A DNA stretch of 5,985 bases from a virus (taxonomy: Duplodnaviria; Heunggongvirae; Uroviricota; Caudoviricetes). The translations under genes were made by a program, and so were the position numbers. The DNA lies in IMG/VR virus record IMGVR_UViG_2579778666_000008; one strand, given 5' to 3'. This document shows, piece after piece, positions 1 to 1,958 of this stretch; the stretch's first letter is position 1, and each line of letters begins with the position of its first letter. The notes beneath the pieces are model-generated. The model ran no database searches. It was not told the DNA's origin and saw only the letters and a program-made list of their open reading frames with translations.

Positions 1-939
1 CGGGACCGTCTGGTCGCAGTACTGCCCGATGGCATACAGCGCCCACTTGTCCACATCCGCCGCCCCCAGACGTTTTCCCATGCCGTAGCGCGGGTGAGTC
101 AGCATGTCCCACAGACACCAGGCCGGGTTGTTGCTGTATGCCGGTTTCAGGCTGCCGTCCCAGATACCGCTGTACGTGCGTTTTTCCGGGTCATAGTTTG
201 ACGGCACCTGAATGATGCGACCGCGGATATGGTAGTTCACCGTCATCTGCTGGCCGCCGAACTGCTCCGCATCCACCTGCAGCCCCACAATGGCCGTGTT
301 CGGGTAGCACTGTTTCACATCGATGATTTCGGTGTATGACGACCACAGCGTCTTATTCTGCAGCTGGTCCGTGGTGCTGTCCGCTGTCTCCCGGACCATC
401 CGGATGTTAAAGGGCCGGGGAGGCAGATTATCCAGAATCACCGAGGCCAGGAACTGTGAGGTGGTCTTGCCGTTAATGGTGACGTCCTTTTCTGTCACCC
501 AGTTACCGTTACGCTGTAACTGAATCAGCAGGCGGACAGACGTCGGGTTACGGTCACCCTTTGAGGTGGTCTCCACCAGTGACTGCACCCCGAAGGTAAC
601 CCGCAGGCGGTCAATGTTCGCGGACGTAATGGTGCGCGTCACCGGCTTTGCCTTCGTCACTTCCACACCCAGTACAGTTTCAGCTCCGGAGGACTCAAAG
701 CCTTCCGGTGGTGTCTGCTCCTGCTCCCCGGCGCGCCAGACCGCTGTCACACCGTGTATCACGGGATTACCGTCCGTGTCCGTCAGCGGGGTTTTGTTCA
801 CCAGGATACTCTGCAGTCCCTTCACCGGGCCTTCCACCGGTCCCTCACCACTGGCATCAATCACGCTCATCATCTGCGTGGATTTGAGATTATCCTTCGC
901 CTCACGAGGTGTGTGTGCCTTACCGCCACCTTTTCCCAT
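1..939 (-). CDS. J: Tail tip / host-specificity protein J, N-terminal 313 codons; the 3' end lies beyond the left edge of the window
   Basis: Hand translation of the minus strand from ATG at 939..937 gives MGKGGGKAHTPRE..., matching the lambda J N-terminus as I recall it (MGKGSSKGHTPREAKDNLKS). The frame stays open through position 1 with no stop (checked codon by codon). Codons at the left edge translate to ...SNNPAWCLWDMLTHPRYGMGKRLGAADVDKWALYAIGQYCDQTVP, near-identical to the corresponding lambda J segment. A GGAAGG Shine-Dalgarno sits 4-5 nt upstream of the ATG (minus strand, about 944..952). Not in the ORF track, presumably because no stop codon falls inside the window. Confidence 0.9.
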   Translation of the reverse strand, partial: MGKGGGKAHTPREAKDNLKSTQMMSVIDASGEGPVEGPVKGLQSILVNKTPLTDTDGNPVIHGVTAVWRAGEQEQTPPEGFESSGAETVLGVEVTKAKPVTRTITSANIDRLRVTFGVQSLVETTSKGDRNPTSVRLLIQLQRNGNWVTEKDVTINGKTTSQFLASVILDNLPPRPFNIRMVRETADSTTDQLQNKTLWSSYTEIIDVKQCYPNTAIVGLQVDAEQFGGQQMTVNYHIRGRIIQVPSNYDPEKRTYSGIWDGSLKPAYSNNPAWCLWDMLTHPRYGMGKRLGAADVDKWALYAIGQYCDQTVP

Positions 940-1042
940 ACAGCCTTCCCCTGAATAAATTAACCGCCACTTGCCATTCCGTACAGAAGTCGGATATCCT
1001 TCGCCCGAAAAGCATGAAACACATTTCTGCCATGCTAAAGAG

Positions 1043-1072
1043 AAACCCCGGTATCAGCAGATACCGGGGTTT
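1043..1072. terminator. Perfect 13-bp hairpin (AAACCCCGGTATC / 4-nt loop AGCA / GATACCGGGGTTT) flanked by T-rich tracts on both strands; putative bidirectional intrinsic terminator
   Basis: Seen directly: 1043..1055 pairs perfectly with 1060..1072, and the GC-rich core CCCCGG pairs with CCGGGG. On the plus strand it is followed by TTTTCTTTCAT; on the minus strand by TTTCTCTTTAG. It lies in the I-J gap, about 100 nt upstream of the J start. Confidence 0.55.
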
Positions 1073-1144
1073 TCTTTCATGCCCACCGATAATCCTGTTG
1101 GTTAAAACCGGTAATGGCATAAAAATTCTGAATATCTTCACATT

Positions 1145-1172
1145 TTCACACACTGACTGTGGCGCTTATAAT
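1145..1172 (+). promoter_or_regulatory. Candidate sigma70 promoter: -35 TTCACA (1145..1150), 16-nt spacer, -10 TATAAT (1167..1172); predicted start near 1179
   Basis: Seen directly: a perfect consensus -10 hexamer and a 5/6 match to the -35 hexamer at near-optimal spacing, in an AT-rich context. It points away from J and toward the terminator at 1237..1270. Confidence 0.4.
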
Positions 1173-1178
1173 TTCTCT

Positions 1179-1270
1179 GCGTTAATTTTTTTGTCGTGAT
1201 ATAAGAATAATTCCTTAACTCTAATCTTTGTCTGTCCCCGCAGCTCCGCGATCACTGCGGGATTTTTTTT
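1179..1270 (+). ncRNA. Candidate small non-coding RNA of about 90 nt (moron-type), running from the predicted start to the intrinsic terminator; the 5' end is uncertain and may lie near 1133 if the weaker upstream promoter is the one used
   Basis: A promoter and a terminator on the same strand are about 90 nt apart with no plausible ORF between them (only a few codons are open in any plus frame after the start). The body is AU-rich and ends in a GC stem plus U8, the usual architecture of Hfq-type sRNAs. It sits in a gap that is much shorter in lambda, as far as I recall. No homology to a named sRNA can be asserted from memory. Confidence 0.3.
1237..1270 (+). terminator. Rho-independent terminator, plus-strand oriented: stem CCCGCAG (1237..1243) / CTGCGGG (1255..1261), 11-nt loop, then A + T8 (1263..1270)
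   Basis: Seen directly. The T8 run follows the stem only on the plus strand; the minus-strand reading has an A-run before the stem and no U-tract after it, so it is not a terminator for the tail operon. It ends 7 nt before the I stop codon on the opposite strand (convergent). Confidence 0.7.
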
Positions 1271-1277
1271 ATTCTTT

Positions 1278-1958
1278 TTACCCCTGCCGCCCGATAACCA
1301 CGACCTTTCCGCCCCCGCCTTCATCACGGGTACTGATGTCCTGGGATATACGGCGGGAGCCAACCAGCATTTCCCCGTAGGGCACCGGCATCGGGTTACC
1401 CTGGGCAATCATGTTATCCAGTGACGAAAAATACGTGTTCTGTCTGCCGTTATCCGTTGCGCGGTAATCCGGTGTTTTTGCCTTCGGGGCCAGCATCTGG
1501 GCCACACCGCCCAGTATCATGCTGGCCCCCAGTGAAAACAGCATCGTGGTGGCAGAAAAACCGCCGGCACTCAGGGCTGTACCCCATAACGCCATCGAGG
1601 CACCGGCAGTGAGGAAAGAGCCCACGATGGCTGCCGCCCCCAGCACAATCTGCAGTCCACCCTTTCCGGCCCCGGCCAGTCGCGGCACAATATGGATAAC
1701 CGTTCCCTCACCCAGTGGTTCGTGAAGGCGGGCATACACCGCCTCCGGTGCCGTATCCTCACCGGCAATGCGTATCTGGTACCAGCCTTCGTTCATCTGA
1801 CGGCGAAAGCCCGGCACCTGTAACGACAGCGCCCGGATGGCTTCCGCTGCCGTGTTCACATACAGGCTGAGGCGGCGGCCAAATCGTTGTAAATCCCCGT
1901 GAAGGCAGATGCGTGCCAGTGGCGGTGACGCCAGACAGAATGCGTTCGTCGTTGCCAT
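1278..1958 (-). CDS. I: Tail tip assembly protein I (lambda gpI family)
   Basis: 226-aa ORF with ATG at 1958..1956 and TAA at 1280..1278. The N-terminus has the conserved ...ARICLHGDLQRFGRR... motif and the C-terminal half is the Gly/Ala-rich hydrophobic region typical of gpI. Its 5' end overlaps the 3' end of K by about 100 nt in another frame, as in lambda. A GAGAGG Shine-Dalgarno-like sequence lies upstream. Confidence 0.9.
   Translation of the reverse strand: MATTNAFCLASPPLARICLHGDLQRFGRRLSLYVNTAAEAIRALSLQVPGFRRQMNEGWYQIRIAGEDTAPEAVYARLHEPLGEGTVIHIVPRLAGAGKGGLQIVLGAAAIVGSFLTAGASMALWGTALSAGGFSATTMLFSLGASMILGGVAQMLAPKAKTPDYRATDNGRQNTYFSSLDNMIAQGNPMPVPYGEMLVGSRRISQDISTRDEGGGGKVVVIGRQG

What the first reader, a model, noticed from the sequence alone, without database searches (positions are those of the whole stretch)
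1043..1072. Strong bidirectional hairpin about 100 nt upstream of the J start, inside the tail operon
A perfect 13-bp stem with T-rich tracts on both sides looks like an intrinsic terminator in either direction. On the minus strand it would stop non-antiterminated transcription between I and J. On the plus strand it would block antisense transcription coming out of J, or terminate a short transcript starting near 1007. Either way it insulates the inserted cassette from the late operon, which only makes sense if late transcription is antiterminated (Q-like) or J is otherwise supplied.
Basis: partly seen in the sequence, partly recalled or inferred. Interest (0 to 1): 0.45.

Follow-up and report, generated by a model that had tools for sequence, protein, structure and literature searches.

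The report
Two-way terminator hairpin before tail gene J
The hairpin is real and looks like an ordinary two-way transcription stop signal just upstream of a prophage tail-fibre gene, at a spot where related phages (lambda, N15, HK97) carry the same kind of signal, so it is a routine feature and not a new mechanism.

Summary
A perfect 13-bp stem with a 4-nt loop lies at 1043-1055/1060-1072, 104 nt upstream of the J start codon (939, minus strand). It is the longest hairpin in the window, and none of 300 dinucleotide shuffles reached 13 bp. U-rich tracts follow it on both strands.

The "inserted cassette" next to it is a known gene. It encodes a variant of the Hfq-dependent prophage sRNA PasB, and probably matches EcOnc22-24 of O157 Sakai. 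It is a reverse-oriented, AT-rich moron in the I-J gap.

The hairpin is not part of PasB. It occupies the position where lambda has an unannotated terminator-like hairpin, and where the N15 and HK97 records annotate a "putative terminator" on the late strand just before J.

Other PasB-carrying prophages have an unrelated hairpin at this position. That one has a U-tract only on the late strand, plus one compensatory pair and U·G pairs that work only on the late strand.

An inducible phage (ASU11) with an identical hairpin encodes antiterminator Q.

Best reading: a bidirectional intrinsic terminator that stops unmodified RNA polymerase and is read through by Q-modified polymerase. No 3'-end data were available. 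It is a new member of a known kind, and interest is low.

The parts
1043..1072 (.). Perfect 13-bp stem with a 4-nt loop. The GC-rich core is 1046-1055/1060-1069. The three outer A-T pairs double as the start of the U-tract on each strand.
1070..1077 (+). U-tract for termination on the + strand: TTTTCTTT, 7 of 8 T.
   Evidence: Read from the sequence; fold.
1037..1045 (-). U-tract for termination on the late-operon (minus) strand: TTTCTCTTT, 7 of 9 T.
   Evidence: Read from the sequence; fold.
940..1125 (.). 'Class A' spacer between the J start codon and the pasB promoter. It contains the hairpin. It is not homologous to the 83-93-nt 'class B' spacer of E2348/69, Sakai and PhiR12-type prophages. 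It is nearly invariant among carriers.
   Evidence: two classes; at least 99% identical in 1442 of 1451 E. coli records; pi 0-0.006 against 0.014-0.22 in the flanks.
1..939 (-). 5' part of tail tip/host specificity gene J. The start codon ATG is at 939-937.
   Evidence: homologues annotated as gpJ.
1278..1958 (-). Tail assembly gene I (226 aa). The stop codon is at 1280-1278.
   Evidence: annotations.
1145..1172 (+). pasB sigma-70 promoter: TTCACA, 16-nt spacer, TATAAT (11 of 12 matches).
   Evidence: The core 1126-1150 is invariant in all five class A and class B sequences aligned.
1179..1270 (+). PasB-family sRNA gene, antisense to the late operon. Its terminator stem is 1237-1243/1255-1261, followed by T8 at 1263-1270. 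The 5' end is approximate (1179 from the promoter, about 1191 by alignment to the published E2348/69 coordinates).
   Evidence: The published PasB northern probe AATCCCGCAGTGATCGCGGAGCT is the reverse complement of 1243-1265. Alignment to NC_011601 1466343-1466261..
971..1000 (+). Weak promoter-like match (TTGCCA, 18-nt spacer, TATCCT; 9 of 12). This is the only candidate start for a short + strand transcript ending at the hairpin.
   Evidence: 4 such matches in the window against 3.0 +/- 1.9 in shuffles, so this is not evidence of function.

Best explanation
The hairpin is a bidirectional Rho-independent (intrinsic) transcription terminator in the gap between tail genes I and J of a lambda-like prophage, between the PasB sRNA moron and J.

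On the late-operon (minus) strand it is the positional counterpart of the terminator-type hairpin that lambda, N15 and HK97 carry just upstream of J. RNA polymerase that is not Q-modified would stop there. Such polymerase could come from read-through, or from stray promoters in the AT-rich pasB cassette, in a repressed lysogen. J and the genes downstream of it would therefore stay silent. Q-modified polymerase coming from the late promoter during lytic growth would read through.

This variant also has a U-tract on the + strand. It should therefore also stop antisense transcripts leaving J before they reach the pasB promoter.

Shown: the structure, its statistical significance, its position, the analogous hairpins in relatives, and Q in a phage with an identical hairpin. 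Inferred: that termination occurs, in which direction(s), and what benefit it gives.
For: (1) Anatomy. A 10-bp GC-rich core inside a 13-bp perfect stem, a 4-nt loop, -22 kcal/mol, and 7/8 and 7/9 U immediately 3' on the two strands. No shuffle reaches this stem length.
(2) Position. The lambda I-J gap (60 bp, no cassette) has AAACCGCC-TGCG-GGCGGTTT followed by TGTCATTTAT on the late strand. The N15 record annotates a 'putative rho-indep. transcription terminator' 11 nt before its J homologue. The HK97 record annotates a putative terminator 11 nt before J, and its I-J gap holds a moron and a 'reverse moron'.
(3) Non-homologous replacement. PasB prophages of class B carry a different hairpin at the same place, followed by TTGTTTTT on the late strand only. 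In that hairpin 98.8% of cells pair, one pair switches C-G to U-A, and three variants have U.G pairs, which would be C.A mismatches on the other strand.
(4) Antitermination is available. ASU11, obtained by mitomycin C induction and carrying an identical module, encodes Q.
(5) Moron context. The gap is AT-rich (35-47% GC against 55-65% in the flanks). pasB has its own promoter and terminator. PasB was detected by northern blot in E2348/69 cultures grown without prophage induction (PMC8550237). This matches the published definition of morons (PMC3594210).
(6) No alternative identity was found. There is no Rfam family, no PHROG family for ORFs crossing the hairpin, and no occurrence outside this context in Escherichia.
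Against: No Term-seq, 3'-RACE or in vitro data for this hairpin were found, and no paper in the library prints its sequence.

The hairpin lies 104 nt from J, not 11-25 nt as in lambda, N15 and HK97, and it shares no sequence with their hairpins. The analogy is therefore positional only.

The class A module is nearly invariant, so covariation cannot test the structure here.

One contig (L066) has lost exactly the hairpin while pasB and the J start remain, so the hairpin is not indispensable for keeping the prophage.

No minus-strand promoter was detected between I and the hairpin. What the late-strand terminator would stop in a lysogen is therefore unidentified.

The simple terminator scan did not flag the site. 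I attribute that to the scan's stem-extension rule.
Confidence: 0.7

Rival explanations
1. The hairpin is the terminator of a separate short + strand RNA of about 70 nt, starting near 1007 from the weak promoter at 971-1000. That would be a second small RNA gene in tandem with pasB and antisense to the J leader.
For: There is a promoter-like match, TTGCCA-18-TATCCT, at 971-1000. The + strand hairpin plus UUUUCUUU would give a typical Hfq-type 3' end. The whole 926-1150 segment is far more conserved than the neighbouring coding sequence, which could reflect a functional RNA.
Against: The promoter match is weak (9 of 12), and such matches are no more frequent in the window than in shuffles. There is no Rfam family. 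No published sRNA maps here. The EHEC and EPEC Hfq data sets report only the pasB-type RNA in this gap, but those strains carry class B spacers. Class B prophages have no + strand U-tract, so such an RNA is not a general feature. The low diversity can also be explained by recent spread of the module through recombination, since there is a gradient of diversity into J.
Confidence: 0.1
2. The hairpin acts mainly at the RNA level in the Q-antiterminated late mRNA. It could be an RNase III or other processing site, or a stability barrier that separates the fates of the upstream (Z to I) message and the J message. On this reading it is not primarily a polymerase stop.
For: With the A/U-tract pairs the minus-strand helix extends to about 20 bp, long enough in principle for RNase III (my own knowledge of the enzyme's substrates). 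Late-strand hairpins also follow E, J and lom in lambda, where a stabilising role is plausible. In class B the U.G pairs show selection on the late-strand RNA, which fits either a terminator or a processing element.
Against: The late strand has a U-rich tract immediately 3' of the stem here and in lambda, N15, HK97 and class B. This is the signature of an intrinsic terminator and is not needed for a processing site. No processing data exist.
Confidence: 0.1
3. The hairpin is a physically competent terminator with no selected role. It would be a leftover or hitch-hiking boundary of past moron exchange at a recombination-prone junction.
For: The I-J junction is a mosaic boundary with at least two unrelated spacers and many pasB alleles. 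The class A spacer behaves as one block of low diversity with a gradient into J, as expected for a recently spread module. A natural 47-nt deletion of the hairpin exists (L066).
Against: A hairpin plus late-strand U-tract recurs in five unrelated sequence forms at the same junction: class A, class B, lambda, N15/HK97-type, and the K-I junction of HK97. Class B shows structure-preserving substitutions. The deletion variant is 1 of about 62 class A contigs, and at most 1 of 1451 E. coli records lacks full coverage.
Confidence: 0.08
4. The 30-bp palindrome is a DNA-level site: an operator for a dimeric DNA-binding protein or a recombination site.
For: It has perfect dyad symmetry over 30 bp.
Against: The symmetric A-tract/T-tract flanks and the GC-rich base of the stem are what a terminator needs, not what an operator needs. 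The analogous sites in relatives differ in sequence but keep the stem-plus-U-tract design. The exact palindrome occurs nowhere else in Escherichia genomes except this context. There is no adjacent regulator gene in the window.
Confidence: 0.02

Closest known systems
Putative Rho-independent terminators annotated immediately upstream of gene J in phage N15 (stem_loop 15307-15330) and phage HK97 (15107-15129), and the unannotated equivalent in lambda (about 15466-15485)
   Same: They lie in the same intergenic position (between tail genes I and J) on the same (late) strand. They share the design of a GC-rich stem, a 4-nt loop and a U-tract, inside an operon that is transcribed by Q-antiterminated polymerase.
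   Different: There is no sequence similarity. The stem here is longer (13 bp against 7-8 bp). It lies 104 nt from the J start codon, not 11-25 nt. It has a good U-tract on the opposite strand too. A reverse-oriented sRNA gene separates it from I.
Moron elements of lambdoid phages (Juhala et al. 2000, from my own knowledge; reviewed in Cumby et al. 2012, PMC3594210), including the HK97 I-J 'moron' gp22 and 'reverse moron' gp23
   Same: The window has an AT-rich insertion in the late operon with its own promoter and terminator. The insertion is expressed from the repressed prophage and is tolerated because late transcription is antiterminated. The I-J gap is an insertion site already recorded in the HK97 annotation.
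   Different: The cargo here is a small RNA (PasB family), not a protein. The hairpin under study lies upstream of the moron's promoter and is not its own terminator. Equivalent hairpins exist in phages with no moron at this site.
PasB (EPEC E2348/69; Pearl Mizrahi et al. 2021, PMC8550237; Zhu, Shabalina and Storz 2026 preprint) and probably EcOnc22/23/24 (EHEC Sakai; Tree et al. 2014, PMC4104026)
   Same: The neighbouring + strand gene at about 1179-1270 is a PasB-family sRNA gene. The published probe matches exactly, and the promoter, terminator and I-J location are the same.
   Different: The hairpin at 1043-1072 lies outside PasB, about 70 nt upstream of its -35 element. Neither paper's passages that I read mention it. 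E2348/69 and Sakai carry the other (class B) spacer.
Bidirectional intrinsic terminators of E. coli (symmetric A-tract, hairpin, T-tract; Ju et al. 2019, cited from my own knowledge)
   Same: It has a symmetric hairpin whose upstream A-tract becomes the U-tract for the opposite strand.
   Different: Those typically sit between convergent genes. Here no annotated gene ends at the hairpin on either strand.

Membership tests
Rho-independent (intrinsic) terminator | Stable GC-rich stem-loop with a short loop | tested here: met
   13-bp perfect stem (10-bp core with 7 G-C pairs), 4-nt loop, -22 kcal/mol. z = -6.7. 0 of 300 shuffles reach this stem length.
Rho-independent (intrinsic) terminator | U-rich tract of about 7-9 nt directly 3' of the stem | tested here: met
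   + strand UUUUCUUU (1070-1077). - strand UUUCUCUUU (1045-1037). Read.
Rho-independent (intrinsic) terminator | RNA 3' ends / release of polymerase at the site | not testable with these tools
   No Term-seq or in vitro data were found. No paper contains the sequence.
Bidirectional terminator | A-tract 5' and T-tract 3' of a symmetric hairpin, so that both strands have hairpin plus U-tract | tested here: met
Bidirectional terminator | Lies between two convergent transcription units that both end there | tested here: not met
   On the minus strand the late operon continues into J. On the + strand only a weak promoter-like site lies upstream.
I-J junction terminator of lambda-like tail operons (N15/HK97 annotation) | Hairpin plus U-tract on the late strand between I and J | tested here: met
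   Window. Relatives.
I-J junction terminator of lambda-like tail operons (N15/HK97 annotation) | Sequence homology or the same spacing to the J start (11-25 nt) | tested here: not met
   The sequences are unrelated, and the spacing here is 104 nt. It is a positional analogue only.
Moron (promoter-gene-terminator insertion) | Extra DNA relative to related phages, with deviant GC content, its own promoter and terminator, expressed from the prophage | tested here: met
   This holds for the pasB cassette. The gap is 338 bp against 60 bp in lambda. There is a GC dip, a promoter and a terminator. A PasB northern blot is published.
Moron (promoter-gene-terminator insertion) | The hairpin at 1043-1072 is a component of that moron | tested here: inconclusive
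   It lies upstream of the moron promoter. Equivalent hairpins occur without any moron (lambda, N15). The spacer that carries it recombines independently of the pasB alleles: 6 spacer haplotypes against 9 pasB haplotypes.
PasB sRNA | Lies within the transcribed PasB RNA | tested here: not met
   PasB maps to about 1179/1191-1270. The hairpin ends at 1072.
Any Rfam family | Covariance-model match | tested here: not met
   The only hit in the window at E<=1 is a chance snoRNA match at 831-877.

The most novel reading that the evidence does not exclude
The approximately 225-nt class A spacer (926-1150), which contains the hairpin, is kept almost invariant by selection and not merely by recent spread. 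On this reading it encodes an undescribed function. Examples would be a second Hfq-type small RNA ending at the hairpin, or a regulatory leader controlling J. The hairpin would then be that element's 3' end or switch, and not a simple insulator.
Probability: 0.1. Interest if true: 0.45.

Novelty: new member of a known kind. Interest (0 to 1): 0.15.

Why it matters
It matters little in itself. It is one more example of the terminators that punctuate lambdoid late operons and that Q antitermination overrides.

Its practical value is for annotation. It marks the J-proximal edge of the pasB sRNA locus, and this form is present in about 27% of complete E. coli genomes (1445 of 5426).

It also shows that the I-J junction keeps a late-strand terminator whichever sequence module occupies it. 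That point is relevant to anyone studying how prophage-encoded sRNAs are expressed without switching on tail genes.

Tried and rejected
(1) Rfam scan of the whole window at E<=1. Nothing was found at the hairpin or at pasB. AgvB/AsxR-type anti-sRNAs were considered and rejected, because they lie at the PR' moron site and not in the tail operon.

(2) Small ORFs crossing the hairpin (66 aa on the minus strand, annotated as hypothetical in ASU11; 61 aa and 44 aa on the plus strand). None matches a PHROG family, and a 30-bp palindrome inside an ORF that overlaps the J start is implausible. Rejected as coding.

(3) Mobile or repeated element. The exact core palindrome was scanned across one genome per species. 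Of 58 hits, 57 are unrelated palindromes in distant taxa, and only the E. albertii hit shares the pasB context. In E. coli every copy sits in the same context. Rejected.

(4) Covariation test on this hairpin. It is impossible, because the module is at least 99% identical in 1442 of 1451 records. Only singleton variants exist.

(5) Search for a minus-strand promoter in the cassette that could feed the late-strand terminator. None passed the consensus scan, and my reading of the sequence by eye found only poor candidates.

(6) RIL-seq supplementary tables of E2348/69 searched for RNAs from the pasB-J spacer. There are no entries, and that strain carries class B anyway.

(7) Finding the window's exact source. 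The best complete E. coli genome is 98.3% identical over the whole window, so the source is not in that collection.

(8) A relatives search with the I protein in viral contigs returned only close relatives of at least 96% identity. Diversity therefore came from named phages fetched by accession.

Full report
CONTEXT. The window is the distal part of a lambda-like tail operon, read on the minus strand. The genes are tape measure H (5940-3637), M (3644-3303), L (3303-2605), K (2599-1856) and I (1958-1278), followed by J, which starts at 939 and runs off the left end (homologous RefSeq and GenBank annotations). The I-J gap (940-1277) is 338 bp, against 60 bp in lambda. It is AT-rich, at 35-47% GC against 55-65% in the flanks.

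OBSERVATION. The inverted repeat is exactly as reported: arms at 1043-1055 and 1060-1072, 13 nt, 100% complementary, with a 4-nt loop.
- It is the longest perfect hairpin in the window. In 300 dinucleotide shuffles the longest stem was 11 bp, and none reached 13.
- Folding z-scores are -6.7 on the + strand and -6.6 on the - strand.
- The stem-loop alone is about -22 kcal/mol on either strand.
- The GC-rich core is followed by TTTTCTTT on the + strand (1070-1077) and by TTTCTCTTT on the - strand (1045-1037).
- The base of the stem is 104 nt from the J start codon.

WHAT THE NEIGHBOURING 'CASSETTE' IS. On the + strand there is a near-consensus sigma-70 promoter (TTCACA-16-TATAAT, 1145-1172) and a canonical terminator (stem 1237-1261 followed by T8).
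- The northern probe published for the EPEC sRNA PasB (AATCCCGCAGTGATCGCGGAGCT; Table S6 of PMC8550237) is the exact reverse complement of 1243-1265.
- PasB is placed at NC_011601 1466343-1466261, between E2348C_1436 and E2348C_1437. Those are the I and J homologues of prophage PP6.
- The two loci align from the promoter to the terminator.
- PasB is 83 nt, Hfq-dependent, and was detected by northern blot in E2348/69 cultures. A 2026 preprint describes it as embedded in an operon of phage structural genes.
- In O157 Sakai, the Hfq-CRAC peaks EcOnc22/23/24 (about 85 nt, destabilised without Hfq) fall in the I-J gaps of Sp15 and Sp11. They land on the pasB-type RNA if the 2014 coordinates are shifted by +128 to +142 to the current record. 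That shift is supported at the stx2B/AsxR landmark, but it remains an inference.
So the cassette is a reverse-oriented sRNA moron of a known family. The hairpin under study is not part of the sRNA. It lies about 70 nt upstream of the pasB -35 element.

COMPARATIVE ANATOMY OF THE J-pasB SPACER. I fetched 120 viral contigs through the invariant pasB promoter core. With the named loci, they show two unrelated spacers between the J start codon and that core.
- Class A is the window's type: 186 nt, with the 13-bp hairpin.
- Class B is 83-93 nt and occurs in E2348/69, Sakai Sp15/Sp11, PhiR12 and many Stx phages. It carries a different hairpin, CAGGCA(C/T)CC-loop-GG(G/A)TGCCTG.
- On the late strand the class B hairpin is followed by TTGTTTTT. 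On the + strand it is followed by (T/C)(A/G)TCATGAC, which is not a U-tract. Class B is therefore a one-way, late-strand terminator design.
- Across nine distinct class B variants, 98.8% of cells pair. One pair switches C-G to U-A. Three variants (one of them seen in 17 contigs) have U.G pairs on the late strand, which would be C.A mismatches on the other strand. This is modest covariation, but it points to an RNA hairpin read on the late strand.

PHAGES WITHOUT THE CASSETTE.
- Lambda's 60-bp I-J gap contains AAACCGCC-TGCG-GGCGGTTT followed by TGTCATTTAT on the late strand, about 20 nt before the J start codon.
- The N15 record annotates a 'putative rho-indep. transcription terminator' (AGCCACC-TCCG-GGTGGCT followed by T7) 11 nt before its J homologue.
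- The HK97 record annotates the same kind of site before J (AGCCACC-TTTG-GGTGGCT followed by T6). It labels the two genes in its I-J gap 'moron product' and 'reverse moron product'. HK97 has another such terminator just before I.
- In lambda, similar late-strand hairpins follow E, J and lom.
A late-strand terminator just upstream of J is thus a recurring, previously annotated feature of lambda-like tail operons, with or without an insertion. The window's hairpin is its positional analogue in a new sequence form.

IS ANTITERMINATION AVAILABLE? ASU11 is a 44-kb Stx2 phage obtained by mitomycin C induction. Its I-J spacer is 100% identical to the window's over 945-1118. It encodes antitermination protein Q in the same orientation as the stx2, lysis, head, tail and J genes. 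It is also the standard explanation for morons.

MECHANISM I COMMIT TO. The hairpin is a bidirectional intrinsic terminator (confidence about 0.7).
- Late strand: it stops polymerase that is not Q-modified before it enters J. Q-modified polymerase passes.
- + strand: in this variant only, it also stops antisense transcripts coming out of J before they reach the pasB promoter.
- Shown: the structure, its significance, its position, the analogues, and the presence of Q.
- Inferred: actual termination, its efficiency in each direction, and any benefit.
- Open point: I found no convincing minus-strand promoter between I and the hairpin. The source of the transcripts it would stop in a lysogen is therefore unknown.

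RIVALS.
(a) It terminates a separate short + strand RNA starting near 1007. The only support is a 9-of-12 promoter-like match, no better than shuffled background, plus the striking conservation of the spacer.
(b) It is an RNA processing or stability element in the late mRNA. The extended helix is about 20 bp, but the U-tracts argue for a terminator.
(c) It is a competent terminator with no selected role, a scar of module exchange.
(d) It is a DNA-binding palindrome, which is unlikely.
Details and refutation tests are given in the rival entries.

THINGS THAT DO NOT FIT NEATLY. Among 56 class A contigs, pairwise diversity is 0-0.006 across 926-1150. It is 0.014-0.05 in the adjacent J coding sequence, 0.015-0.08 in I, and 0.15-0.22 in the pasB RNA. 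In complete E. coli genomes the spacer is at least 99% identical in 1442 of 1451 records, while the 361-nt region that includes pasB is mostly 90-99% identical. Diversity rises gradually into J and abruptly at the pasB promoter. That pattern fits a recently spread recombination module, but purifying selection on an unknown function is not excluded. This is the basis of the 'novel case'. One contig (L066) has lost 47 nt comprising the hairpin, between two TTTCT repeats.

NOVELTY AND VERDICT. No Rfam family, no paper in the library, and none of the database annotations I inspected describes this particular hairpin. The kind of element is well known, and it is annotated at the same junction in N15 and HK97. 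I classify it as a new member of a known kind, with low interest (0.15). The terminator-and-antitermination logic is right. However, the cassette is a known sRNA gene, the conserved direction is the late strand, the hairpin type exists without any cassette, and nothing is yet shown experimentally.

Noticed in passing
window 1145-1270 (+): This is a PasB-family sRNA gene. The promoter and terminator match E2348/69 PasB, and the published northern probe matches 1243-1265 exactly. The 5' half of the RNA body differs from the E2348/69 allele. Among class A contigs this segment is the most variable part of the locus (pi 0.15-0.22, 9 haplotypes).
   Followed up: partly
window 926-1150: This is a non-coding island of near-zero diversity (pi 0-0.006, 6 haplotypes in 56 contigs). 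It is flanked by coding sequence that is 10-30 times more diverse. It is at least 99% identical in 1442 of 1451 E. coli records. Whether this reflects recent spread or strong constraint is not resolved.
   Followed up: partly
L265 1490-1732 (Sakai Sp15) and L266 672-913 (Sakai Sp11): The Hfq-CRAC sRNA candidates EcOnc22/23/24 of Tree et al. 2014 appear to be the Sakai PasB homologues in the I-J gaps. This assumes a +128 to +142 shift between the genome versions. The PasB entry in Table S6 of Pearl Mizrahi et al. lists no EHEC homologue.
   Followed up: partly
L189, L190, L194 (I-J gaps; sequences printed): Further sRNA-like alleles occupy the same promoter/terminator frame in the I-J gap but have a largely different RNA body. 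A short TTAATCTTC motif is kept before the terminator. The I-J gap seems to host a family of exchangeable sRNA cargos.
   Followed up: no
L066 (viral contig IMGVR_UViG_2671180417_000014): This is a class A spacer with a clean 47-nt deletion that removes the whole hairpin, between two TTTCT direct repeats. pasB and the J start are intact. It is a natural hairpin-minus control.
   Followed up: no
L021 (viral contig IMGVR_UViG_2541047932_000014): Here the class A spacer is replaced from about window position 1090 leftwards by unrelated DNA. The J start and the hairpin are absent, which suggests an insertion or rearrangement breakpoint right next to the pasB promoter.
   Followed up: no
window 3442-3423 (-): A terminator-like hairpin (GGCATGGT-GGTT-ACCGTGCC followed by TTTTTGTGGC) lies on the late strand inside the coding sequence of tail gene M. 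It was the top hit of the simple terminator scan.
   Followed up: no
L264 (lambda) 7163-7180, 18920-18935, 19612-19633; L268 (HK97) 1800-1825: Late-strand terminator-like hairpins also follow lambda E, J and lom. Another precedes HK97 gene I after a small inserted ORF. Such sites are a regular punctuation of these late operons.
   Followed up: partly
window 1856-1958: Tail genes K and I overlap by 103 nt in different frames, as in lambda (K 14276-14875, I 14773-15444). This is an ordinary feature and is recorded only for completeness.
   Followed up: no
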